Made by a program: the position numbers and the translations under genes. Source: a virus (Duplodnaviria > Caudoviricetes). From it: 60,263 bases of DNA. The notes below the pieces were generated by a model, which searched no databases, had not been told where the DNA came from, and worked only from the letters and a program-made list of their open reading frames with translations. Positions 1 through 60,263 of the stretch are shown one piece after another (the stretch's first letter is position 1; each line of letters opens with the position of its first letter). The stretch lies in the IMG/VR virus record IMGVR_UViG_3300039002_000009, positions 1 to 60,263 of that record. One strand, given 5' to 3'.

Positions 1-88
1 GCCCACGCAGCAGCCCACGCAGCAGCCCTCGCAGCAGCCCCCGCAGCAGCCCTCGCAGCAGCCCCCGCAGCAGCCCCCGCAGCAGCCA
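1..88 (-). repeat. 12-nt coding tandem repeat GCTGCTGCG(G/A/T)GG, about 7 units
   Basis: Directly visible. Only the first base of the fourth codon varies (Gly/Arg/Trp). Confidence 0.95.
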
Positions 89-377
89 TTCCTTCTCGGG
101 TGGCCTCGCCCGTGGCAAAACGTCTGGCAATCTCAATCGCCTGTTTGGGCCGATCTTCTCCAGCAGGGACCAAATGCAAAACGGCCTCGGCAAAATCACA
201 GGCTATAAGACGCAAACGAGAGTCATTTTTGTCTATAGTGGTCCGGGCGAGGAGCCAGATCATCCAATCGGAGCGATGGCAGTTCGTCCATGCTGTTTGG
301 AGATCGGGTTGGGTGGAGGCCCAATTACGAGCTTCCTCACATGCGTTGAGATGGGAGAGGATTGTTTTGAGTTTCAT
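1..377 (-). CDS. Imm5-like domain protein with C-terminal AAA(G/R/W) repeats, truncated at window edge
   Basis: Not in the ORF track because it runs off the edge. Manual translation from ATG at 377: MKLKTILSHLNACEEARNWA...CHRSDWMIWLL...RLRLIACDFAEAVLHL...EDRPKQAIEIARRFATGEAT then AAAG/AAAR/AAAW repeats. Confidence 0.75.
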   Translation of the reverse strand, partial: MKLKTILSHLNACEEARNWASTQPDLQTAWTNCHRSDWMIWLLARTTIDKNDSRLRLIACDFAEAVLHLVPAGEDRPKQAIEIARRFATGEATREGMAAAGAAAGAAARAAAGAAARAAAWAAAW

Positions 378-384
378 AAGTGGC

Positions 385-816
385 CTACGCTTTCGTAATA
401 TGGATGAGGGTTCCTGATTTGGAGTCATAGGTTCGAATACGGAGGCCAATGGCTGAGCCGATGGATTTCATGGACTGTTCGCCACTCATACCTTGCAAAT
501 AGATATCTCCCTCGCCTCTGCATACTCCATAGAAGTCTGGAAAGTGAGCGAAACGGCCGTTGATTTCAATCTTGATATCAGGATCCGAAAAGAACGCGCG
601 TAATTCATTTTGCCAGAGGTTTTCGAGGATCTGGGCAATGGCGCATCCAATGCGATCAAAGCCACATCCGCCAATGGCAAAAATACGTTTCTCGCGGTCA
701 TAGACCTGTAAGGACATGCCAGTCCGCGAAGGGATGCACTCCAGGATGATCGGGCGAGGATCCGGGAAGGCGATCCAATCCTTCAGATAAGCGTAACTGA
801 CAGGGTGCGTGGCCAT
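385..816 (-). CDS. hypothetical early phage protein
   Basis: ORF 385..876. Start moved to ATG 816, which follows an AAGGAG RBS and an intergenic hairpin. Confidence 0.75.
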   Translation of the reverse strand: MATHPVSYAYLKDWIAFPDPRPIILECIPSRTGMSLQVYDREKRIFAIGGCGFDRIGCAIAQILENLWQNELRAFFSDPDIKIEINGRFAHFPDFYGVCRGEGDIYLQGMSGEQSMKSIGSAIGLRIRTYDSKSGTLIHITKA

Positions 817-47827: not shown

Positions 47828-48052
47828 TTATTGCATCACCAGGGGTGTTGTCTTCTCTTTGGTGTGAATGAAGGCCATGGCCTGCTCTGACCTCCCTTGT
47901 CGAATCTCGTAGAGGGCCTTGTCGATCCAATTGAACGGAATCCCTGTGACAGGCCCATTGGCGATGTGAGCCGCTAGGGCAGAGATGGGCTGTATGAGTC
48001 TATCTACGGGAGGAATAGGATCGCAGGCATCAGAAGGACAAATCTGAGTCAT
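47828..48052 (-). CDS. hypothetical protein
   Basis: 3' part of ORF 47828..48217; start uncertain. Confidence 0.45.
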   Translation of the reverse strand: MTQICPSDACDPIPPVDRLIQPISALAAHIANGPVTGIPFNWIDKALYEIRQGRSEQAMAFIHTKEKTTPLVMQ

Positions 48053-48446
48053 AGTCACTTCCGCCGTTGATGGTTGTAGTCTCTTCCTTGTCGGGAGCAG
48101 GCCGCTTCTCGCCGGATCGACCAAGAAGGATGAACTCTTTCGTATTGATCTCGATATACGTTTTCTTGAGGCCCTGCTTATCGGTATAGTCTCGGATATC
48201 AAGCTTCCCTTCGACATAGATCTGGTCCCCCGCCTTCACGTAGTCCATGACAACCTTGGCCTGGGGGCCATAGACAACCGCATGGAACCAGGATGTCTTG
48301 GTTTTCTTTTGGCCCTGCGAGTCCTTCCACTTCTCTGTGACTGCCACGGAAAATTTCGCTGATTCAATCCCTCCAGCAGTTACCTTACGTTCGGGGTCTT
48401 TCCCGACGTTCCCTATGAGTTCTGTCCGATTCAGGCTATAAGCCAT
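48030..48446 (-). CDS. ssb: single-stranded DNA-binding protein
   Basis: SLNRTELIGNVGKDPE...YVEGKL, acidic tail DSDLSF. Confidence 0.95.
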   Translation of the reverse strand: MAYSLNRTELIGNVGKDPERKVTAGGIESAKFSVAVTEKWKDSQGQKKTKTSWFHAVVYGPQAKVVMDYVKAGDQIYVEGKLDIRDYTDKQGLKKTYIEINTKEFILLGRSGEKRPAPDKEETTTINGGSDYDSDLSF

Positions 48447-48448
48447 CT

Positions 48449-48835
48449 TCACTCCTTCGTTCCGGTCTTTCCCGGATATGGTAGGACTGGACGTTGTTTG
48501 ATTCTTAGCTCGTGGCGTTTCGCGAGCATACAGTAAGCTAGTTCGAGGTCCAGCCCGCCCCGCTCCAGCCATGCCCATTCAATGATCTTGCCTTTGAGCG
48601 CCTCCCAAAGCCTGGGATCGGCGACCGGCATGACAAAGTATCCCTTGTCTGGACCATCGAGGATGAACTGATTCCGCTTACGCCATTGGATGAACCAAGC
48701 AAGAGCCCCGAATTGTAGGTCCTCTTCTCCATCCGTCCACACAAAGAGCACGTGCCGGAGGTTCGGAGGGTACCGGTCCTGGCCTTCGATCTGAGGCTCT
48801 TCATCAAAATCAAGACCTTCATCCCAGTCGGTCAT
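48449..48835 (-). CDS. hypothetical protein
   Basis: 128 aa, coupled to neighbours. Confidence 0.65.
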   Translation of the reverse strand: MTDWDEGLDFDEEPQIEGQDRYPPNLRHVLFVWTDGEEDLQFGALAWFIQWRKRNQFILDGPDKGYFVMPVADPRLWEALKGKIIEWAWLERGGLDLELAYCMLAKRHELRIKQRPVLPYPGKTGTKE

Positions 48836-52108: not shown

Positions 52109-52876
52109 TTAGGCTAATCTCAAGTCGGGCAGATCTGGTGGAAGTTCGATTGCTGGTGCCAAGCCGATAAGACGGCTAATCAGGCGTGGCCCGTAGTAGT
52201 TTGGCTCACTCATCTGTTCTACCGTGTGGTTGCTCGTCCAGAACAGCTTCGCATCGTTGTTGTAGAGCGCGTCGATCAGGTTCTCTAGTTCCTCGGTAGT
52301 ATAGGCATTCTCCTTGATGGTCTCCTCGCCGATGTCATCGAGGATGAGGATGCGATCAGGGTAGGCCGTAGCCCAGATGATGAGCTGTTGCACAGAAGCA
52401 TCCTTGTCATCCCACAGTCGGCGTGCGCTAAGGCCCTTCATCCTCCGAGAGTAGGCAGGCCAGCTCACCCACATAATATCAGTCCTAAGCCTAGGTTCGA
52501 TTCGGTGGATGATGTTCCCTCCAAACTCCGAGGCTTCTTCCATCTTCGTCGGGCCGGCCTCGGCGAGTTCTTGGCGAAGCAATTCCTTAAGGCAAACAGC
52601 CAACGCGCAGGATTTTCCACAACCAGTGGGTCCAATAATTCCGAAGCAAGATTCGGGGAAGGACTGGAAAGCTTGACGGTTATAGAGCAGCCTCGGAATC
52701 CTTTCCATTGTTCCCTTAGTTGTGCGCGGAGGGACGCCAATCTCCAGCAGAGTTTTTTGAATTCTCTTTGGGAACCCTTCAGCCTTTTCTTTTTCGAATT
52801 CTTGTTCGAGGAAAAGATTTTCATTGGCGATCCTAGTACCTGCGCCTGTCAGCAAATCGGCTAGTGGATGAGACAT
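52109..52876 (-). CDS. DnaC/IstB-like AAA+ helicase loader
   Basis: GPTGCGKS, LILDDIGEE, WTSN and RLISRL. Confidence 0.88.
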   Translation of the reverse strand: MSHPLADLLTGAGTRIANENLFLEQEFEKEKAEGFPKRIQKTLLEIGVPPRTTKGTMERIPRLLYNRQAFQSFPESCFGIIGPTGCGKSCALAVCLKELLRQELAEAGPTKMEEASEFGGNIIHRIEPRLRTDIMWVSWPAYSRRMKGLSARRLWDDKDASVQQLIIWATAYPDRILILDDIGEETIKENAYTTEELENLIDALYNNDAKLFWTSNHTVEQMSEPNYYGPRLISRLIGLAPAIELPPDLPDLRLA

Positions 52877-53621
52877 GTGCCTTCTCCTGCGTTTTGAAGT
52901 CTTCTTGCTCTGCCAGTTTGGCAGCCTTGCCGTCCTGTAAGAGGTAATCAATATCCGCCTTCCAACTGCGGTCATTCTTCCCAAGATGGAAGTCTGAGGT
53001 TGCCACGTAAGAAGCAGCCTTGCGGAAGTCATCAAGCCATCCAGACTCCTTGAGCCGAGCAAGGATTATAACTGAACGCTTCGCTCCAGCTTTCTCAGCC
53101 TTAGGGAGCTTCCCTGCTGTCGCACTGTTCCAGATATCTAAGACCTCTTGGATGGATTTGCTTTTTTGAGTCTCTTTTGGAGGAGAATCATCAAAGTCTA
53201 TGTCGCCAAAACCACTAAGCTCCGCAGGAGCCAAAGGTGGATTGTCGTTTTCTGGTTTAGAGGATTGTGGATTATGGATTGTGGTTAGGGTTAAGGGTTG
53301 GTCAAGCATACCTTGAGCGGTGCTTAAGCCAGGGTTTAGTGGGGCTTGAGGATGGCTTAAGCGGTGCTTCGGAGAACCACCCTTTGACCCATGTCTTGAG
53401 CAGTCTTCCCTGAACCTTTCGGCTTCGTCCCTCATTCCTTTCCCCATACCATATCCAGCAAGGAAAGCCGGGGAAGCCCCCTCCAGGATCTTCCCATTGT
53501 TTACGCCTCTCCATAAGCCATTTGAAAAATCAGAATGGTCGTCCCTCCCATCTAGTGTCGCCCATACCGCATTGAATTGGTCTATATTCATACGTAGGTT
53601 CCATGTCCTAGATATAGCCAT
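52833..53621 (-). CDS. phage replication initiator
   Basis: GSKGG, internal low-complexity linker, WN...R...GKNDRSWKADIDYLL. Lies upstream of the DnaC-like gene. Confidence 0.8.
   Translation of the reverse strand: MAISRTWNLRMNIDQFNAVWATLDGRDDHSDFSNGLWRGVNNGKILEGASPAFLAGYGMGKGMRDEAERFREDCSRHGSKGGSPKHRLSHPQAPLNPGLSTAQGMLDQPLTLTTIHNPQSSKPENDNPPLAPAELSGFGDIDFDDSPPKETQKSKSIQEVLDIWNSATAGKLPKAEKAGAKRSVIILARLKESGWLDDFRKAASYVATSDFHLGKNDRSWKADIDYLLQDGKAAKLAEQEDFKTQEKAHVSSTSRFADRRRY
53262..53370. repeat. iteron-like repeats inside the initiator gene (candidate ori)
   Basis: GGATT(G/A)T x3, GCGGTGCTT x2, GCTTAAGC x2. Confidence 0.5.
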
Positions 53622-54135: not shown

Positions 54136-54302
54136 GGAAGAATACTCAGTTTATCCCTGATCTCAAAATAGACATTTGATCCAAGCGGAGCGCCGTCTTT
54201 GATAAGTTCGTGGATCTTCCAAAGACGACCACGAAGATCGTCAACAATTTCTGCATAGTCTCGAATTGCCTTACAGTAGCCTTCTTCGTCATCCCTATTC
54301 AT
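54132..54302 (-). CDS. small hypothetical protein (56 aa)
   Basis: Manual translation MNRDDEEGYCKAIRDY..., overlaps coupled on both sides. Confidence 0.6.
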   Translation of the reverse strand: MNRDDEEGYCKAIRDYAEIVDDLRGRLWKIHELIKDGAPLGSNVYFEIRDKLSILP

Positions 54303-55372
54303 TTCGGGATCCTCATCTTATCGCCGTAGCCTTGCATGGCCTTAGCAAGAGCCAGAATCTTTTCTTCCTTAGACTCTCCACCTTGGAATTGCAAGAGGGC
54401 CTTGGTTTTGTCACGAATCTTGACAGCTTCAGCATGAGGGTCCGTAGCTCCCGCCTCCTTATAGGCCCGTTCGAATCGTTCACAGGCATCGTTATATGCC
54501 TTCTTCGCGAACTCCGGGAATTCGGGATCACTTGGTTTCGGCTCATCAGGACCCACCATAGGAGGAGGGATCGGGGGAGGTTCAGACTTAGCCGGCTCGG
54601 GAGGGGGGGGATGCGTAGCGGCTTTCTTGGCCTTCTCTGCCGCGATAGCCGATTTGAACGCCATGATGAAATCTTTGAGGCCCTTGAGAACTTTAGTTGA
54701 AGGATCAGACTTCTTGCGTTCATCCCACTTTGCCTTCTGTTCTTCGTATTTCTCGGGATGACCACCTTCTTTATAGAGTTTGTAAAGGTCATCCAAGAGC
54801 GAGACATAGGCGCTTTGTTCATCCACGCTCCAACCATCAGTCTGCGGCGGTGGTGCGAGGGTCCCTTTAGGTTTGTCGTCAGGGATGATTTCAGATACGA
54901 CAGCGCCGGGAATAGTCTCAACCTCTGTCTCATCCATCATACCGAGACCCATGTGCGCCAAGACAGAACGTCGAATGGCCTTTGTCGTGGCCTTTAGCAT
55001 AGCGTTAGCCTTAGCATCACCCTTGAGCCCTTCCACCGGAACAGCACCCATATTCTCAGTAGATCTTCCATCAGGGCCGGTGACGCGGCAGAAGACGCAA
55101 TATACACCTTCTGATACTTCGCGAGCAGTGATGGTGTGACTAAGTTTGTGGATACTTGTGAGCTGCTGCGTGCAGCTTGCGTTGGCGTAAAGAATCTCTT
55201 TCCCATTGAGAGAAAGAAGGTCGAAGGGCTTGGCGCTTGGATCTAGCCCTGCTTGCTGGCAACGGTAGTTGTAATACTCGACTTTCTGTATTGGCGAGAG
55301 ACGTTTAAGGTCTCCGTTGATCACTAAAGAAGAGATGATCTCTGGGTTCAGGGTTCTAAGTTCGTCAGCCAT
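54299..55372 (-). CDS. RecT/Red-beta-like single-strand annealing protein
   Basis: C...GLDP..KPF, AMLKATTKAIRR.VL...G.GMMDETE. Confidence 0.75.
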   Translation of the reverse strand: MADELRTLNPEIISSLVINGDLKRLSPIQKVEYYNYRCQQAGLDPSAKPFDLLSLNGKEILYANASCTQQLTSIHKLSHTITAREVSEGVYCVFCRVTGPDGRSTENMGAVPVEGLKGDAKANAMLKATTKAIRRSVLAHMGLGMMDETEVETIPGAVVSEIIPDDKPKGTLAPPPQTDGWSVDEQSAYVSLLDDLYKLYKEGGHPEKYEEQKAKWDERKKSDPSTKVLKGLKDFIMAFKSAIAAEKAKKAATHPPPPEPAKSEPPPIPPPMVGPDEPKPSDPEFPEFAKKAYNDACERFERAYKEAGATDPHAEAVKIRDKTKALLQFQGGESKEEKILALAKAMQGYGDKMRIPK

Positions 55373-55621: not shown

Positions 55622-56566
55622 TTATCTCCCGGCGATTCTCGCCTTCTCGGTAATGGATAGCCCTGGATAGTCCAGGGGATTTAGCTTATGGATGTCATCT
55701 CCCAACACTTCCTTGAGCCGCTTGGCCAAGGCGTTGAGTTTGGTCTGATCAGGGGAACAATACTTGCGGTCCACCATCTCTTCGTTGGTGACCTCGACAA
55801 ACCAGGGAAACGATACGCGCGTGCCTGACCCGACAATCGGAGCGATGGCTTCTGGCATCTCGACACGAGTTGATGCAAGCGCGACTTCAACGAGGGCTTC
55901 TCGGACATCTTCCTTGGCTTCCGGCAATTCCATGGCTGCAAGCGCGGCCAAGAACGGATCTTCCGATTCCGTCTGTTGGCGCATCGCTTCGAGATCAGCC
56001 TTAGCTTTGGTTGCTTCCGCCTTGGCTTTGTCTTCGGCTTCCTTGATCTTCTGTTGACGCTCCTCTTCCTGCTTGCGGAGATCGTCACGCTCCTTCATCT
56101 TGAAGGCGGCCATCGGTGGTTCGTAGGTATCGATCACTTCTTGCCAGATAACAGCGGTCTCCTTGAATGCATCGTCGATCTTGCGCTTGGCATCCAAGAG
56201 GGGGGTCGTGAGGTCCTTCCGCTTCTTCTCGTTTTCGCGTAGACCCTTCTTGGCGTAGGCTAGTTTGACTGAGGCTGCTTCGTATTCTTCGGGCGTGGTG
56301 ATAACGATCTTCTCGGCCACCTTCGCCGCTTCTGCCTCCTTGCGGGTTTTGAGGATTTGCTCGTCGGGGGTTAGATCTTTCGGAGGATCGGGTTTCGCGT
56401 CAGGATCTTCTTCACCGGGGTCCTCTTCCGCCGCAGCTTGGATGGCCTCATCTGATGGATCCGATTTAAGGAATCCCGGTTTGCGGTAGAGACGGTTCCG
56501 AAGCGCTTTCTGATTATCGCCAGGGTACATCTCCCTGATTCGGTCTCGAACTTCGGCTTCAGTCAT
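55622..56566 (-). CDS. coiled-coil recombination-module protein (DUF1351/Gp157-like)
   Basis: I.T.EEY..A...RKDLTTPL.DAKRKIDD.FK...W.VEVT....V.RKY..PD...PG. Confidence 0.65.
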   Translation of the reverse strand: MTEAEVRDRIREMYPGDNQKALRNRLYRKPGFLKSDPSDEAIQAAAEEDPGEEDPDAKPDPPKDLTPDEQILKTRKEAEAAKVAEKIVITTPEEYEAASVKLAYAKKGLRENEKKRKDLTTPLLDAKRKIDDAFKETAVIWQEVIDTYEPPMAAFKMKERDDLRKQEEERQQKIKEAEDKAKAEATKAKADLEAMRQQTESEDPFLAALAAMELPEAKEDVREALVEVALASTRVEMPEAIAPIVGSGTRVSFPWFVEVTNEEMVDRKYCSPDQTKLNALAKRLKEVLGDDIHKLNPLDYPGLSITEKARIAGR

Positions 56567-56583: not shown

Positions 56584-56612
56584 ATGATACTATTTAACCT
56601 TATTCTGTGCAA
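56584..56612 (-). promoter_or_regulatory. sigma70-like promoter for the recombination genes
   Basis: TTGCAC-N17-TATCAT. Confidence 0.65.
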
Positions 56613-56655
56613 GGATATTTTTGAGAATCCAGAAAATGCTAAACCCCCCTGGACA

Positions 56656-56787
56656 TCAATGTTTGTGAATCAGCCACCAAAGCCATACCCGGCCAACCGG
56701 GAGTAATTTCTCTCCAGCCATCCGAAAAGCCACAGGGAACGGCTTCCAGTGGAAGCCATAACACCCTGGATCACGACTGATTTTCAT
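56656..56787 (-). CDS. small Trp-rich protein (unit 7, second gene)
   Basis: AAAGGA RBS, MKISRDPGCYGFHW... Confidence 0.55.
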   Translation of the reverse strand: MKISRDPGCYGFHWKPFPVAFRMAGEKLLPVGRVWLWWLIHKH

Positions 56788-56801
56788 ATCGATTTCCTTT
56801 C

Positions 56802-56999
56802 TCATAGGATGCGGCATGGAATGTTCGCGATCTTGGTATAGACCATCGGATGATCCTGCTTGTGGACGGAGAGACTGTCTGTTTCGAATTGATCGATCTG
56901 GAGCCGGAGAGTCGAAGACAGCCCAGCTACGGCTATGCGGAGCCGAGTGACTGCCGCCTCTTCTTCGGGCGCCGGTGGGATGTGCTTCGGGAACTTCAC
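56802..56999 (-). CDS. small hypothetical protein (unit 7, first gene)
   Basis: AAAGGA RBS, GTG start. Confidence 0.55.
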   Translation of the reverse strand: MKFPKHIPPAPEEEAAVTRLRIAVAGLSSTLRLQIDQFETDSLSVHKQDHPMVYTKIANIPCRIL

Positions 57000-57036
57000 G
57001 GATTCCTTTCAGCCAGAGCTTCCGGCAGATGGACAT

Positions 57037-57201
57037 CTACATCTGGGGCAGTTGAGAGGTGGCGTTCTTGATGGCAATGCTGAGTTCTGGGCTTCGCGCC
57101 GACCAGGGACACGCTCCAGTGGCGTCCTTCACACGGACCTCGTAGACCTCCCAGTTGGCGACGTGCTCAGTGTCGATCTCGATGGTGTATAGGCGTTTCA
57201 C
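57037..57201 (-). CDS. small hypothetical protein (unit 6)
   Basis: GGGAGG RBS, GTG start. Confidence 0.6.
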   Translation of the reverse strand: MKRLYTIEIDTEHVANWEVYEVRVKDATGACPWSARSPELSIAIKNATSQLPQM

Positions 57202-57223
57202 GATGCCTCCCGCATCTGGACAT

Positions 57224-57412
57224 CTACTTCTTGATGGGGTCGCCACTGTCATCGACCAGCGACAACGACATGAAAGTGCCGGAGTGTTCCGGAAAACCAG
57301 TCTTCAGGAGACCGATGATCCGATCGCTCAGCCAATCGAGATCACTCTGTCCTACCTTGCAACTGGGATCGAAAATCAAGGTCACTTTGATGTTGGCTTT
57401 CATCTTCCACAT
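57224..57412 (-). CDS. small hypothetical protein (unit 5)
   Basis: AGGAG RBS overlapping the junction motif. Confidence 0.6.
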   Translation of the reverse strand: MWKMKANIKVTLIFDPSCKVGQSDLDWLSDRIIGLLKTGFPEHSGTFMSLSLVDDSGDPIKK

Positions 57413-57436
57413 CGGGGATCTCCTGGACAGTCGCAC

Positions 57437-57763
57437 TCAGGGGCGGATGAACGATCCGCACGAGTCAGGTTTCGTTTCACACTTCGGGCAATATGGAATT
57501 TCCTCATGGTGGACCCTCCCCGACCCAGAGAGCGGGAAGGGTCCGTCATGGATTGAGTGGCACACGCCGGCAGCCATGATCAGCCCACCGCAAACCGTGC
57601 AGACACAGTCCCCGTTTTCTTCCATTCGGTAAGGGATCTTTCTGCCGGTGCCCCTCATATACCGCGTGCCATCCGGAGCGGTCGCAAACTCCGGGATAAA
57701 GAATCCGGCGGGAGCAGCCTTCCAGGAAGGATCTATTTCAAAATTGAGAGAATTCAAATCCAT
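57437..57763 (-). CDS. zinc-binding hypothetical protein (unit 4)
   Basis: AAAGGA RBS, CTVCG...PYCPKCE. Confidence 0.7.
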   Translation of the reverse strand: MDLNSLNFEIDPSWKAAPAGFFIPEFATAPDGTRYMRGTGRKIPYRMEENGDCVCTVCGGLIMAAGVCHSIHDGPFPLSGSGRVHHEEIPYCPKCETKPDSCGSFIRP

Positions 57764-57804
57764 GGAAATCCTTTCGATGGGTGGGTCCAGGCTGCTGCTG
57801 GACA

Positions 57805-58083
57805 TCACTTGCTGTTGAGAATCAGATCGATGCGCCGCTGCATGGCCGCGTCGTCCGGATAGCGATTCCCGATATGGAGATGGCACTCGCGGAGCAGCTC
57901 CTCCAGCTTCGCCACACGGGTGCACACACGACGAATGGCATCGTTGAAACCTTCGTCTTCGTGGATCCCAAGAAGATGACTCAGTTCCTCCTGGATTTTC
58001 ACATTCTTCTCGTAGTAGCCCTTGCCGAAGATCGCTTCCCCTGCGGCAATGTAGACGTCCATCAATTCACCGAGGTTTGACAT
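57805..58083 (-). CDS. hypothetical protein (unit 3)
   Basis: 92 aa, AAGGTG RBS. Confidence 0.7.
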   Translation of the reverse strand: MSNLGELMDVYIAAGEAIFGKGYYEKNVKIQEELSHLLGIHEDEGFNDAIRRVCTRVAKLEELLRECHLHIGNRYPDDAAMQRRIDLILNSK

Positions 58084-58101
58084 GGGTTCACCTTCTGGAC
58101 A

Positions 58102-58317
58102 TCAGCGTTTAAGAAGCGCTTTGGCGCGAAGAACGCTCGGGCATTCGCTATCAGACGGCGTGTGCCAATCCAAAACATCGCGCAGGGCCGTTTCCAGCTC
58201 CGCCACGCGGACTTCGACTTCGCTCAGGAGTTGGCTAACACGTTCGCGAACGGCATCGGAAGGACCATAAAACGAAACACGTTCAAGCTGAGATCGGATT
58301 TCTTGGACCTTATTCAT
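58102..58317 (-). CDS. helical hypothetical protein (unit 2)
   Basis: 71 aa, GGTG RBS. Confidence 0.7.
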   Translation of the reverse strand: MNKVQEIRSQLERVSFYGPSDAVRERVSQLLSEVEVRVAELETALRDVLDWHTPSDSECPSVLRAKALLKR

Positions 58318-58335
58318 GGTTCACCGTTCTGGACA

Positions 58336-58632
58336 TCAGCGCAGTTGCGCGATGAGTTGTTTGCGGGCGGCGGCGAGCTCCTTCTCTTTTCGTTCCGGGG
58401 ATAGCTTCCACCAGTAGTAGTCGTCGGAACTGGCAACCGTGGTCCACCATCCCGTTCTCAGCTCTGTGTTCGTGAATTTGCACCACCGATTCCCGCAGGG
58501 ACCGTCATGGAAAAACGAGACATACCTGTAGCCATGGGGCCAGCCACCAGTGGCGTCAATTAGAGCCATAAACTTCTCTTCCGGCGCTCCCCACGGATGG
58601 ACCAATTCTTTACGGTCTAGTTCGTCGCTCAT
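58336..58632 (-). CDS. hypothetical protein (unit 1)
   Basis: 98 aa, AAAGGAG RBS. Confidence 0.7.
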   Translation of the reverse strand: MSDELDRKELVHPWGAPEEKFMALIDATGGWPHGYRYVSFFHDGPCGNRWCKFTNTELRTGWWTTVASSDDYYWWKLSPERKEKELAAARKQLIAQLR

Positions 58633-58669
58633 CGGGGGCTCCTTTCTTGGGTCGTGCAGATGGACAGTA

Positions 58670-58951
58670 TTACTCGATGGTTATTTGTGTTGCTTGAGAC
58701 TTCGTATCAATTTCTGTTTGATTTGCATGAATATTGATTTTGATGGGTTCACTCTCGGGAATGCTCAGACACATACTGTCTGATTTCCTACGCTCAGCTT
58801 CAGCATATCGTCTCCACTTTTGCGACCCGCAATGGTGTTTGAAGTGCTCTCGATGGATAATGCGATTCTCCTTACGCCGCTTGGCATCATCCGCCTGGCA
58901 TTCTTCATGAGCACGGAACAGATCGGCTTGAAATTGAGCCTTGGGGGTCAT
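58670..58951 (-). CDS. hypothetical protein
   Basis: 93 aa, GAGG RBS. Confidence 0.6.
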   Translation of the reverse strand: MTPKAQFQADLFRAHEECQADDAKRRKENRIIHREHFKHHCGSQKWRRYAEAERRKSDSMCLSIPESEPIKINIHANQTEIDTKSQATQITIE

Positions 58952-59460: not shown

Positions 59461-60263
59461 CTATGTCTCAACGTCAGGATGATACTCTTCAGCGCGCTTG
59501 CCAAAAGTGCTAGCTACAGCAGCGCGGGCTGTCATCTCTTGAGGTTCTCCGAGAGAGCCATCCGGGTGCATAGGACGTAGTTCGGGGTGTACGCGGAGGA
59601 AATACGTTTTGCGAGACCCGTCAGGTTCTGGTGTCGAATTCAGGACTTCCACCATCACCATCGGATCATCATCAGCTAAATCACGTTTCCAAAGTTTTCC
59701 AGTCTCATCCTGATGGACTAGTTTCGCTCCAGATTCCTGCAAAAAACGTGAAGGCCCAAAACGTTCGATCATCACGCGGCGAACTTCAGTGTTTTCTTCT
59801 GCCAGGATAGATTCAGGCGTTAATGATTGAGGGTGTTCAATGACCCTGCATGGCACCCGAACACCTTTATACGCATAAAGTGCATAGCCATCGGAGAAGG
59901 CCATGGCAGGACCGTTTTCGCAATGGAGGCGATTACGCGAATCTTGATGGATCTCGGTGGGACGGTCACAAATAAAACAGATACCCTCAAAGGTATAGAC
60001 CCATCCACACGATTGGGCACATCGCTCCCATTGATGCAATAGCTCACGCTGGTCATCTGTATAGATTGGATGGATGAACCGATCAGGGAATGTGTAAAAT
60101 GAAATCCAATATTCGTCCCATTGACCCCAAAACCAAGTCCAGTAATAGACCATCTTGGTTTTGTCGAGGAGCTGGTCGAGGAGCTGGCCGCGGAGCTGGC
60201 CGCCGAGCTGGTTGCCGAGCTGGTCGAGGAGCTGGTCGCGGAGCTGGTCGCCGAGCTGGCCGC
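59461..60263 (-). CDS. DUF6745-domain protein with N-terminal QLxx repeats, 5' truncated
   Basis: CDRPTEIH.D..NRLHCENGPA..FSDG..LY..KGVRVP, ENTEVRRVMIER and NSTPEPDGS.KTYFLRV. Frame stays open to the window end. Confidence 0.85.
   Translation of the reverse strand, partial: GQLGDQLRDQLLDQLGNQLGGQLRGQLLDQLLDKTKMVYYWTWFWGQWDEYWISFYTFPDRFIHPIYTDDQRELLHQWERCAQSCGWVYTFEGICFICDRPTEIHQDSRNRLHCENGPAMAFSDGYALYAYKGVRVPCRVIEHPQSLTPESILAEENTEVRRVMIERFGPSRFLQESGAKLVHQDETGKLWKRDLADDDPMVMVEVLNSTPEPDGSRKTYFLRVHPELRPMHPDGSLGEPQEMTARAAVASTFGKRAEEYHPDVET
60163..60263 (-). repeat. 12-nt coding tandem repeat CAGCTC-NNC-NNC (QL(R/G/L)(G/D/N)), about 8 units
   Basis: Directly visible GAGCTGG units at 12-nt spacing. 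Confidence 0.95.

What the first reader, a model, noticed from the sequence alone, without database searches (positions are those of the whole stretch)
56650..58666. Cassette-like gene array: a TGTCCA core follows the stop codon at nearly every gene boundary
Seen in sequence (minus strand, in reading order): TAA-TAC-TGTCCATCTG (58661), TGA-TGTCCAGAAC (58330), TGA-TGTCCAGAAG (58096), TGA-TGTCCAGCAG (57799), TGA-GTGCGAC-TGTCCAGGAG (57424), TAG-A-TGTCCAGATG (57217), TAG-A-TGTCCATCTG (57030), TGA-TGTCCAGGGG (56650). The consensus is (A/C)TGTCCA(G/T)NNG. All 8 copies I can find in these 2 kb are intergenic and on one strand, where about 0.5 copies of a given 6-mer are expected by chance. They delimit 7 units of 187-380 bp. 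Each unit is motif, short leader with RBS, one unrelated promoterless small ORF (one unit has two), stop, then the next motif. Flanking genes instead use ordinary ATGA/TGATG overlaps. Established: integron cassettes have this unit structure, but their core is GTTRRRY and they carry attC hairpins, neither of which is present here. Inference: these are crossover scars from repeated site-specific insertion of circular gene cassettes by a non-integron recombinase. No recombinase is encoded in the window, so it would come from the host or another element. An alternative is translational re-initiation from the ATG in (TG)ATGTCC, but two sites read CTGTCCA and have no ATG.
Basis: partly seen in the sequence, partly recalled or inferred. 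Interest (0 to 1): 0.92.

Follow-up and report, generated by a model that had tools for sequence, protein, structure and literature searches.

The report
TGTCCA-bounded phage gene cassette array
A row of small early genes in this phage is separated by the same six-letter DNA word, and in related phages whole genes are gained, lost, swapped and reordered exactly at that word, so it marks the joints of a gene-shuffling array whose enzyme is still unknown.

Summary
Eight minus-strand TGTCCA copies lie at 56650-58666, each 0-7 nt after a stop codon (0.55 copies expected, P about 1e-7). They cut the block into seven units of 187-380 bp.

The motif is not private to this phage. The same hexamer sits in the same stop-proximal position and orientation in about 30 other uncultivated phage records and in a prophage in a Holophagaceae chromosome. 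Some of these phages share only 22-35% identical virion proteins with this one.

In those relatives, units that are 93-100% identical sit among unrelated neighbours, in permuted order (A-B versus B-A), or in present/absent states. Homology stops inside a window of 13 nt or less at the hexamer. No close relative of this phage itself was found.

The array is not an integron (no attC, no GTTRRRY, no IntI), not a T4 PeSL (no promoter or stem-loop), and not a start-associated sequence.

The enzyme is unknown. This phage encodes no tyrosine or serine recombinase. A temperate sub-lineage carries a Xer-like recombinase gene whose stop abuts the first hexamer.

This scan noted the same phenomenon before on other DNA. 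My literature searches found no description of it.

The parts
58661..58666 (-). Hexamer 1 (TAA-TAC-TGTCCA), directly after the anchor gene 58670-58951
58670..58951 (-). Anchor gene (93 aa) upstream of the array. It is translationally coupled to the genes before it by an ATGA overlap.
   Evidence: only a weak PHROG hit, E 0.0044
58336..58632 (-). Unit 1 ORF A (98 aa), with a 28-nt leader after hexamer 1
   Evidence: Homologues at 51% and 40% identity in L001 and L002, without hexamers.
58330..58335 (-). Hexamer 2 (TGA-TGTCCA-GAACGGTGAACC-ATG)
58102..58317 (-). Unit 2 ORF B (71 aa)
   Evidence: no PHROG hit; only weak similarity to ORF C (E 0.01)
58096..58101 (-). Hexamer 3 (TGA-TGTCCA-GAAGGTGAACCC-ATG)
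57805..58083 (-). Unit 3 ORF C (92 aa)
   Evidence: A homologue with 48% identity over 58 aa lies inside a hexamer-bounded unit of L160.
57799..57804 (-). Hexamer 4. Its GTCCAG pairs with CTGGAC 7 nt downstream (inverted repeat 57785-57803).
   Evidence: This hairpin-type leader is a minority class: CTGGA lies within +8..+40 at 17 of 215 junctions.
57437..57763 (-). Unit 4 ORF D (108 aa, Cys-rich). The ATG that overlaps the preceding TGA is also in frame.
   Evidence: no relatives found
57424..57429 (-). Hexamer 5 (TGA-GTGCGAC-TGTCCA-GGAGATCCCCG-ATG)
57224..57412 (-). Unit 5 ORF E (62 aa)
57217..57222 (-). Hexamer 6, followed by the leader GATGC-GGGAG-GCATC and then GTG
   Evidence: The same 21-nt hexamer plus leader occurs in L129, L137 and L143.
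57037..57201 (-). Unit 6 ORF F (54 aa, GTG start)
57030..57035 (-). Hexamer 7
56802..56999 (-). Unit 7, first ORF G (65 aa)
   Evidence: A homologue with 77% aa identity lies in L129 between two hexamers, with different neighbours.
56788..56801 (-). The one junction in the block without a hexamer (TGA-GAAAGGAAATCGAT-ATG)
56656..56787 (-). Unit 7, second ORF H (43 aa)
56650..56655 (-). Hexamer 8, the terminal copy. No gene follows for 83 nt.
56584..56611 (-). Sigma-70-like promoter match (TGCACA-16-TATCAT) just after the array, in front of gene 55622-56566
   Evidence: a consensus match only
54299..55372 (-). 357-aa protein 1.3 kb downstream of the array. It is a possible Rad52-like annealing protein (lead only).
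   Evidence: No hit in Pfam, PHROGs or PDB. The Atlas nearest cluster has PF04098 on 20% of its members, structure TM 0.77. 65% identical to a protein in L140.

Best explanation
The eight TGTCCA copies are the joints of a cassette-like array. The array is a hypervariable block in the early, leftward-transcribed arm. Each unit consists of a leader with a ribosome-binding site, one small ORF (two ORFs in one unit), a stop codon and, 0-7 nt later, the hexamer.

Shown in relatives: units of this kind are exchanged between phages, inserted, deleted and permuted, and the crossover falls within the hexamer or at most a few flanking bases.

Shown for the window: the anatomy is identical. Two of its ORFs recur as hexamer-bounded units elsewhere. 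The block has the G+C content of the shared unit pool rather than that of its own backbone.

Inferred: how the joining is done. This phage has no site-specific recombinase, so I see two possible engines.
(a) About 45%: annealing or short-identity recombination during co-infection, at a junction word that is kept constant for a still unknown cis function. This follows the logic of T4 PeSL shuffling. A possible Rad52-like annealing protein is encoded 1.3 kb away.
(b) About 35-40%: a hexamer-directed enzyme supplied in trans by the host or a resident prophage. The candidate is the Xer-like recombinase whose gene abuts the first hexamer in temperate relatives.

The confidence given is for the cassette-joint reading as a whole.
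For: Family-wide motif:
- A degenerate pattern scan of viral contigs gave 26 stretches. 17 of them carry 3-17 stop-associated copies on one strand, for example L125 17 of 20, L011 14 of 16 and L134 10 of 11.
- A 21-mer scan of metagenome contigs gave 17 stretches, 14 with 3 or more such copies. Four of the 17 are the same records as viral contigs.

Anchoring to the stop codon:
- The stop-to-hexamer distance is 0-7 nt in 125 of 144 array copies. The hexamer-to-start distance ranges from 9 to 159 nt.
- In the 47 junctions of 35 nt or more, the hexamer lies nearer the stop in 34.

Breakpoints:
- Among 216 stop-associated copies, 20 inter-record pairs share 80% or more identity on a flank. 19 of the 20 are one-sided.
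- Homology blocks start at offsets -3..0 in 7 of 7 cases. They end at +5..+10 in 10 of 12 cases and at +18..+20 in 2 of 12.
- L125 (11.4 kb) matches the whole 27-kb record G004 only in two single units, 98% and 96% identical, each bounded by hexamers.
- L160 and L170 share unit A (161 bp, 100%) and unit B (381 bp, 99.7%) in the order A-B versus B-A, and nothing else.
- L165 and L164 have 100%-identical flanks. L164 holds two extra units (588 bp) where L165 has one hexamer, and three units where L165 has one. The two L164 junctions involved share only 11 nt.
- L157 and G005 share three units, two of them permuted.

Shared pool:
- Array G+C is 0.584 (sd 0.025) in 14 records whose backbones range from 0.49 to 0.654. 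Arrays are richer than poor backbones and poorer than rich ones.
- In the window the array is 0.551 against 0.522 for the rest, with local flanks at 0.47-0.52.

Deep conservation: the window, G002 and G003 share only virion genes, at 22-35% identity.
Against: - No close relative of this phage was found. Viral-contig searches with the 314-aa neighbour, ORF C and ORF D returned nothing. Mobility is therefore not shown for these eight junctions themselves.
- ORF A homologues in L001 and L002 have no hexamer.
- The 20 junction pairs are not independent events; several belong to the same unit.
- The family was collected with patterns that contain the hexamer, so phages with another junction word would have been missed. 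The fraction of related phages that have arrays is unknown.
- Selection alone would also place surviving breakpoints between genes, although it would not explain the constant hexamer.
- Against engine (a): the identity visible at recent breakpoints is only 6-13 nt, and no expression role for the hexamer could be shown. There is no promoter match inside the array, no structure, and one junction works without the hexamer.
- Against engine (b): 6 of 7 records that are at least 90% complete, including the window, have no tyrosine recombinase. The site has no second arm.
Confidence: 0.8

Rival explanations
1. Dedicated site-specific system, an integron analogue. A tyrosine recombinase recognises the hexamer core, excises units as circles and inserts them at another hexamer. 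Phages without the enzyme, such as this one, are serviced in trans by the host or by a resident prophage of the same family.
For: - A Xer-like recombinase (PF00589 E 2.7e-29; XerC model E 1e-40 over its full length) ends 1-3 nt before the first hexamer in L170, L167, G012 and L183. That is 4 of the 4 records in which its 3' flank is held.
- L170 and L167 are 92.7% identical over 2,068 bp up to exactly that first hexamer, and different after it.
- G012, G013 and the Holophagaceae prophage also carry a second, ordinary integrase after the array, so the first one is not needed for lysogeny.
- There are n+1 copies for n units, and the terminal copy in the window is not followed by a gene.
- A-B versus B-A permutation at 100% identity is what opening a two-unit circle would give.
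- Two rearrangements separate L164 from L165 with no substitution in about 1.1 kb of flanks, and only 11 nt of identity at the joint.
Against: - There is no tyrosine recombinase in the window, G002-G009 and no serine recombinase in the window.
- No non-structural protein is shared by the window, G002 and G003.
- The recombinase-bearing records are one lineage (61-99% identical), so adjacency may be inherited synteny.
- In the Holophagaceae prophage about 470 nt separate its stop from the first hexamer.
- Known tyrosine recombinases use two inverted arms around a spacer (my own knowledge). Only about 7% of junctions have an inverted copy.
- Its scores are far below the curated cut-offs for XerC and integron integrase.
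Confidence: 0.35
2. Passive PeSL-like shuffling. The hexamer, often together with a shared leader class of 15-25 nt, is a cis signal for expression of the small genes. Because it is the only sequence common to unrelated units, general or annealing-type recombination and replication slippage produce viable recombinants there.
For: - The hexamer always has the orientation of transcription, sits at a fixed place after the stop and usually precedes a ribosome-binding site.
- Leader classes recur in front of unrelated ORFs. For example, the identical 21-mer TGTCCAGAAAGGTGAACCATG occurs in 10 loci, which gives longer identity at some joints. 2 of 12 block ends extend to +18..+20.
- There is a possible Rad52-like annealing protein in the window (a lead only).
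- A precedent exists: recombination between repeated regulatory cassettes shuffles ORFans and makes mini-circles in T4-type phages (PMC2839356; abstract and sections 14 and 16 read).
Against: - No function for the hexamer could be shown. There is no promoter-like site in 56650-58666, no terminator and no structure enrichment (mean z -0.1 to -0.3, the same as the control). It is not the Shine-Dalgarno sequence.
- The hexamer stays with the stop when the leader is long, and the last copy has no gene behind it.
- Only the accessory block uses it, not the other early genes.
- At 17 of 19 breakpoints the shared identity is 6-13 nt. As far as I know that is far below what PeSLs (about 100 bp) or annealing proteins use.
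Confidence: 0.4
3. Purely regulatory repeat, a stoperator-like or SAS-like binding site for a protein or RNA, with no role in recombination. The mosaic boundaries coincide with it only because both must lie between genes.
For: - It has one orientation relative to transcription and sits close to stop codons, as described for Cluster A stoperators (PMC6550527, passages read).
- Position -5 is G in 107 of 142 copies whatever the stop offset, which hints at a longer asymmetric site.
Against: - Breakpoints fall within 13 nt or less of the hexamer, not just anywhere in junctions of 18-90 nt.
- Arrays regress to a common G+C.
- The site is confined to one block, not spread over the genome.
- No repressor or other shared factor was found.
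- It occurs in phages without integrase.
Confidence: 0.1
4. Chance, or a residue of tandem duplication.
For: Junctions 2 and 3 are nearly identical over 24 nt.
Against: - P is about 1e-7 for the clustering.
- ORFs B and C are barely similar (E 0.01), and the other units are unrelated.
- The same arrangement occurs in about 30 other records.
Confidence: 0.01

Closest known systems
PeSL (promoter-early stem-loop) modular shuffling in T4-type phages (Arbiol et al. 2010, PMC2839356; Comeau et al. 2014, PMC4122927, abstract only)
   Same: Both are repeated intergenic elements that lie between the stop of one ORFan and the ribosome-binding site of the next, in a hyperplastic block of non-essential early genes. 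In both, insertions, deletions and replacements between related phages are bounded by the repeats, and excised units are proposed to travel as circles.
   Different: PeSLs are about 100 bp, carry a sigma-70 promoter and a terminator stem-loop, and recombine by homology. Here only 6-7 nt are constant. There is no promoter or stem-loop, and the identity at breakpoints is 6-13 nt. The same word is also shared by phages with only 22-35% identical virion proteins.
Integron cassette arrays (IntI, attI, attC), including attC clusters reported in phage genomes (PMC9892861; search listing and abstract seen)
   Same: Both are co-oriented, mostly promoterless single-ORF units. The site follows the stop codon, there are n+1 sites for n units, and units are gained, lost and reordered at the site. 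In a temperate sub-lineage a tyrosine recombinase gene sits at the array start.
   Different: There are no attC hairpins: junctions are 18-45 nt in most cases and show no structure signal. The core is TGTCCA, not GTTRRRY. There is no IntI in the window. The recombinase of relatives is Xer-like, co-oriented with the array and scores below the integron-integrase cut-off.
Start-associated sequences (SAS/ESAS) of Cluster K mycobacteriophages (PMC3203893, passages of section 15 read)
   Same: Both are short asymmetric repeats in one orientation, restricted to non-structural genes and found in front of genes of different families. In both cases the reader of the signal is unknown.
   Different: SAS is 13 bp, contains the Shine-Dalgarno core and lies 3-7 bp from the start codon. 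The hexamer has no SD, keeps 0-7 nt from the stop and varies 9-159 nt from the start. SAS are not reported as recombination breakpoints in the passages I read.
Stoperators of Cluster A mycobacteriophages (PMC6550527, passages read; PMC9283540, abstract)
   Same: Both are asymmetric sites with one orientation relative to transcription and many copies per genome.
   Different: Stoperators are 13 bp, spread over the genome, and bound by the phage's own immunity repressor. Here the site is 6-7 nt and confined to one block, no repressor was found, and most carriers have no integrase.

Membership tests
Integron | Integron integrase (IntI) gene next to the array | tested here: not met
   PF00589 is absent from the window. 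The recombinase of relatives scores 89.8 bits on the integron-integrase model, against a cut-off of 265.
Integron | attC sites: structured imperfect palindromes of roughly 55-140 nt after each ORF (size from my own knowledge) | tested here: not met
   Stop-to-start junctions in the window are 18-92 nt. Folding of 213 junctions gives a mean z of -0.1 to -0.3, the same as the control stretches. No Rfam hit of note.
Integron | Core site GTTRRRY at cassette boundaries | tested here: not met
   The boundaries read TGTCCA.
Integron | Units gained, lost and reordered at the site | tested here: met
   Shown in relatives, not in the window itself.
PeSL regulatory cassettes (T4-type phages) | Sigma-70-like early promoter in each repeat | tested here: not met
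   There is no promoter-like site within 56650-58666. The nearest lies after the array at 56584-56611.
PeSL regulatory cassettes (T4-type phages) | Stable stem-loop (terminator/attenuator) in each repeat | tested here: not met
   No minus-strand terminator-like site in the array and no structure enrichment.
PeSL regulatory cassettes (T4-type phages) | Indels and replacements of ORFans bounded by the repeats | tested here: met
   (in relatives)
PeSL regulatory cassettes (T4-type phages) | Mini-circles formed by recombination between neighbouring repeats | not testable with these tools
   No sequencing run was listed for the region, and read laying was not used.
Start-associated sequences (Cluster K) | Repeat lies 3-7 bp upstream of the start codon and contains the SD core | tested here: not met
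   The hexamer-to-start distance is 9-159 nt (9-16 nt in 77 of 143), while the stop distance is 0-7 nt in 125 of 144.
Stoperators (Cluster A) | 13-bp asymmetric sites spread over the genome and bound by the phage repressor | tested here: inconclusive
   The one-orientation feature is met. Distribution over the genome is not met: there is a single block. No repressor was identified in 50 window ORFs scanned by Pfam and/or PHROGs. Binding cannot be tested here.
Xer/Cre-type simple tyrosine recombinase site | Two inverted binding arms around a 6-8 bp spacer (my own knowledge) | tested here: not met
   An inverted copy (CTGGA within +8..+40) is present at 17 of 215 junctions, including window 57785-57803. 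The rest have a single hexamer.

The most novel reading that the evidence does not exclude
TGTCCA arrays are a previously undescribed, phage-borne counterpart of the integron. A Xer-like recombinase, encoded by temperate members including a prophage of a Holophagaceae (Acidobacteriota) chromosome, uses a 6-bp core with no attC-type structure. It excises and inserts single-gene units. Virulent relatives such as this phage draw on the same circulating pool of units, using the enzyme in trans.
Probability: 0.3. Interest if true: 0.92.

Novelty: new variant of a known kind. Interest (0 to 1): 0.82.

Why it matters
Small early phage genes are where host-takeover and anti-defence functions are usually found, and how phages acquire and exchange them so quickly is poorly understood. 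This array gives a concrete and very compact rule: one gene, one stop, one six-letter word.

The rule holds across phages that otherwise share almost nothing. Near-identical units sit in different genomes, in different orders, or are present in one genome and absent in another. That makes the process testable, by reads across junctions, by assays with the Xer-like protein, and by crosses.

If an enzyme reads the hexamer, this would be a new minimal site-specific gene-capture system. If not, it would show how little sequence identity is enough to make a phage locus modular.

Tried and rejected
Readings rejected:
- Re-initiation at the ATG of TGATG. Position -1 is A in only 53 of 142 junctions.
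- Start-associated signal. The distances do not fit.
- Promoter or terminator in each junction. None was found.
- Structured RNA or attC. No known family matched (the only hit was Pab91, E 0.081, far below its gathering score) and there is no folding signal.
- Recent tandem duplication.

Readings considered but not testable or not tested:
- Extended Shine-Dalgarno or rRNA tethering could not be tested because the host rRNA is unknown. It is made unlikely because the hexamer stays at the stop when the leader is long.
- Chi-like, nick or primase sites were considered but not tested. None of them explains a strictly intergenic position.
- Assembly chimeras are unlikely. The identity at breakpoints is 6-13 nt, which is shorter than assembler k-mers as far as I know. 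The same unit combinations also recur in separate records (L167/L183 and L160/L170/L167).

Searches that led nowhere:
- blastn of the region against isolated phages: no match.
- Relatives of the 314-aa neighbour, ORF D and ORF C in viral contigs: none.
- The 14-mer scan gave 120 stretches. Only L011 and L060 of the 122 loci then held turned out to be real family members.
- The 21-mer in genome contigs: 0 hits.
- The 357-aa and 454-aa proteins against PDB: no hit.
- The Atlas search on the DUF6745 protein gave no host clue.
- tRNA scans were empty.
- The host-wide count of TGATGTCCAG in the Holophagaceae genome gave 45 dispersed copies and no cluster beyond the prophage. This does not test stop association.
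- Sequencing runs: none was listed and no RNA holder was listed.
- Literature: searches for TGTCCA+phage+intergenic, CALIN/attC/phage genomes and bacteriophage+gene cassettes+hypervariable region+conserved intergenic+recombination returned nothing that describes this array. Supplementary files were not consulted.
- The ORF-stop census (135 of 192) uses crude ORF calls in G+C-rich DNA and is only a lower bound.


Full report
THE OBSERVATION

The window is a complete 60,263-bp phage contig (the completeness estimate of 100 is shown). Virion and sugar-metabolism genes lie on the plus strand at roughly 2.9-47.7 kb. An early/replication arm lies on the minus strand: SSB at 48030-48578, a DnaC-like loader at 52109-53062, an O-like initiator at 52833-53621 and a DUF6745 protein at 59461-60153.

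In that arm, eight TGTCCA copies lie at 56650-58666, all on the minus strand. Each lies 3, 0, 0, 0, 7, 1, 1 or 0 nt after a stop codon. The hexamer is not enriched in the window overall (40 copies against 33 +/- 5.7). Eight copies in 2,017 nt, where 0.55 are expected, gives P = 1.3e-7.

Eight of the nine ORF stops in the block carry the hexamer. The ninth junction (56788-56801) reads TGA-GAAAGGAAATCGAT-ATG, an ordinary junction minus the hexamer. The genes before the block overlap (ATGA, GTGATG). After the last copy come 83 nt with a sigma-70-like match, and then genes without the hexamer.

The nine small ORFs have no PHROG family. Ten small ORFs were scanned, and the only hit was a weak one for the 93-aa anchor gene upstream (E 0.0044).

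A FAMILY-WIDE ELEMENT

A 14-mer scan happened to return two contigs with arrays of the same kind, L011 and L060.

A degenerate 18-mer scan then gave 26 stretches. Seventeen of them carry 3 to 17 stop-associated copies on one strand. Seven look like chance matches, and two short loci carry two copies each.

A 21-mer scan of metagenome contigs gave 17 stretches, 14 with three or more such copies. Four of the 17 are records already seen as viral contigs. In whole records the copies form one local cluster of small ORFs. Other hits on that strand in G005 are in-gene background.

Over 142 junctions the hexamer is followed by G in 87. Position -5 is G in 107, and position -1 is almost never G (2 of 142).

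The hexamer is tied to the stop, not the start. The stop distance is 0-7 nt in 125 of 144 copies. The start distance is 9-16 nt in 77 of 143, 18-37 nt in 38, and 47 nt or more in 17. In junctions of 35 nt or more the hexamer lies nearer the stop in 34 of 47.

The leaders after the hexamer fall into recurring classes that are shared between phages and stand in front of unrelated ORFs. Examples are the 21-mer TGTCCAGAAAGGTGAACCATG in ten loci, and the window's TGTCCAGATGCGGGAGGCATC in L129, L137 and L143.

The window, G002 and G003 share only virion genes, at 22-35% identity. The word is therefore conserved over a deep divergence and over backbones of 49-65% G+C.

UNITS MOVE, AND THE BREAK IS AT THE HEXAMER

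All-against-all blastn showed that similarity between arrays is confined to single units.

- L125 and L144 share two units at 97.6% and 95.9% identity. Their homology begins at the T of TGTCCA and ends at or just after the next hexamer, with unrelated flanks. Against the whole 27-kb record of L144, nothing else in 11.4 kb of L125 matches beyond 50 nt.
- L160 and L170 share unit A (161 bp, 100%) and unit B (381 bp, 99.7%) in opposite order, and nothing else.
- L165 and L164 have flanks that are 100% identical (126 and 708 bp) and a shared unit at 99.6%. L164 holds two extra units (588 bp) where L165 has a single hexamer, and three units where L165 has one. The two L164 junctions concerned share only 11 nt.
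- L157 and G005 share three units, two of them in permuted order.

In a census of 216 stop-associated copies, 20 inter-record pairs had a flank with 80% or more identity. Nineteen of these were one-sided. Blocks start at offsets -3..0 in 7 of 7 cases. They end at +5..+10 in 10 of 12 and at +18..+20 in 2 of 12. These pairs are not independent events.

Of 131 unit ORFs, only 23 fall into families shared between loci, so the content is mostly ORFans.

Array G+C clusters at 0.584 (sd 0.025), while backbones range from 0.49 to 0.654. The array is richer than the backbone in the four poorest backbones, including the window, and poorer in most of the rest, by up to 0.083 (local profile). This fits a common pool of units.

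WHAT APPLIES TO THE WINDOW ITSELF

- ORF G has a homologue with 77% aa identity in L129, between two hexamers but with other neighbours.
- ORF C has a homologue with 48% identity in a hexamer-bounded unit of L160.
- The gene at 3-449 has a homologue inside the array of G003, but it has no hexamer in the window.
- ORF A homologues in L001 and L002 sit in ordinary overlapping operons.
- No close relative of the phage was found. Turnover at these eight joints is therefore inferred from the family.

WHAT THE HEXAMER IS NOT

It is not a promoter or terminator, not a folded element and not the ribosome-binding site. It is not a start codon context and not a duplication residue.

One-mismatch variants (TGCCCA, TGTCTA, TGTTCA) occur at some junctions.

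RECOMBINASES

The window has no tyrosine recombinase, no serine recombinase and no Pfam RecT. Pfam and PHROG scans covering 50 of its ORFs found no nuclease or recombinase.

Of the seven records that are at least 90% complete, only G010 has a tyrosine recombinase.

In one temperate lineage a Xer-like recombinase is present (full-length similarity to the XerC/XerD/XerA models at E 1e-38 to 1e-41, below their cut-offs). Its gene ends 1-3 nt before the first hexamer in L170, L167, G012 and L183. L170 and L167 are 92.7% identical up to exactly that hexamer and differ afterwards.

G012 and G013 carry a second, ordinary integrase downstream of the array. G010 carries that type near the end of its array, and G001 has a 95-aa fragment of it after its last hexamer.

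A scan of genomes with this recombinase found, as best hit (61% identity), a 5.7-Mb contig titled as an uncultured Holophagaceae MAG. There the gene is followed about 470 nt later by 10-11 hexamer junctions in 3.5 kb, and then by an integrase with a phage-integrase central domain. This names a host for part of the family and shows the architecture recombinase - array - integrase inside a chromosome.

The window's 357-aa protein at 54299-55372 is a possible Rad52-like annealing protein. The evidence is an Atlas lead only, with the family present on 20% of the members of the nearest cluster.

MECHANISM

Shown: the hexamer is the joint at which units are exchanged.

Inferred: the engine. Short-identity or annealing recombination at a conserved cis signal follows the logic of PeSLs (PMC2839356, sections 14 and 16). 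It needs no missing gene, but it leaves two things unexplained: the function that keeps the hexamer constant, and the 6-13-nt identity at very recent events.

A hexamer-directed enzyme explains the precision, the n+1 topology, the permutations and the recombinase at the array start. It is absent from most complete genomes, however, and the site lacks a second arm.

I put these two engines at about 45% and 35-40%.

COMPARISON AND NOVELTY

The array works like an integron and like PeSL shuffling, but it fails the defining features of both (see the membership test). It also differs from SAS (PMC3203893) and from stoperators (PMC6550527).

My three literature searches found no description of it.

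Earlier notes of this scan describe the same TGTCCA-bounded arrays in at least three other genomes. I saw them after reaching the cassette reading. Two things are new relative to the lines I could read: the stop-anchoring, and the Xer-like recombinase abutting the array. One of those notes stated that there is no integrase.

Noticed in passing
window 1-449 and 59461-60263: The contig ends fall inside one gene. An Imm5-like N-terminal part (ATG at 376, PF21805 E 9e-6) runs into Ala-rich GCTGCTGCG repeats at position 1. The other end of the contig has similar low-complexity repeats leading into the DUF6745 domain. The contig is probably circularly permuted, or was cut inside a repeat.
   Followed up: partly
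window 57202-57216: The leader GATGC-GGGAG-GCATC places a GGA-containing Shine-Dalgarno sequence in a hairpin loop. The identical hexamer plus leader recurs in L129, L137 and L143. An earlier scan note (e1-5703970) reads such hairpins as CsrA-type sites. I did not test this.
   Followed up: no
L125, L130, L131, L134, L137, L140, L141, L144, L145, L160 and others: An identical 21-nt hexamer-plus-leader-plus-ATG (TGTCCAGAAAGGTGAACCATG) stands in front of at least nine unrelated ORFs. So the leader itself behaves as a module, or there is a second breakpoint at the start codon.
   Followed up: partly
L189/L269-L271 (G014, contig titled uncultured Holophagaceae MAG): A chromosomal prophage has the layout Xer-like recombinase - 3.5-kb hexamer array - phage integrase. 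Array G+C is 0.59 against 0.65 for the surroundings.
   Followed up: partly
L179 5174-5725 (G013): A truncated copy (183 aa) of the Xer-like recombinase is followed by TGATCTGATCAGG, which looks like a decayed TGATCTGTCCAGG junction.
   Followed up: no
window 57437-57763: ORF D is Cys-rich (CxxC ... CPKC), like a small zinc-ribbon protein. No relatives were found.
   Followed up: partly
window 55622-56566: The 314-aa protein just after the array is 28-30% identical to the 235/237-aa proteins encoded two genes upstream of the Xer-like recombinase in L167 and L170. The same neighbourhood is therefore kept, with the array on the other side.
   Followed up: no
family arrays: Some junctions carry one-mismatch variants of the hexamer: TGCCCA three times, plus TGTCTA, TGTTCA and TATCCA. 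TGCCCA occurs twice with the same leader class (T[CT]TGGAGGAACC). This could help to place the crossover point inside the hexamer.
   Followed up: no
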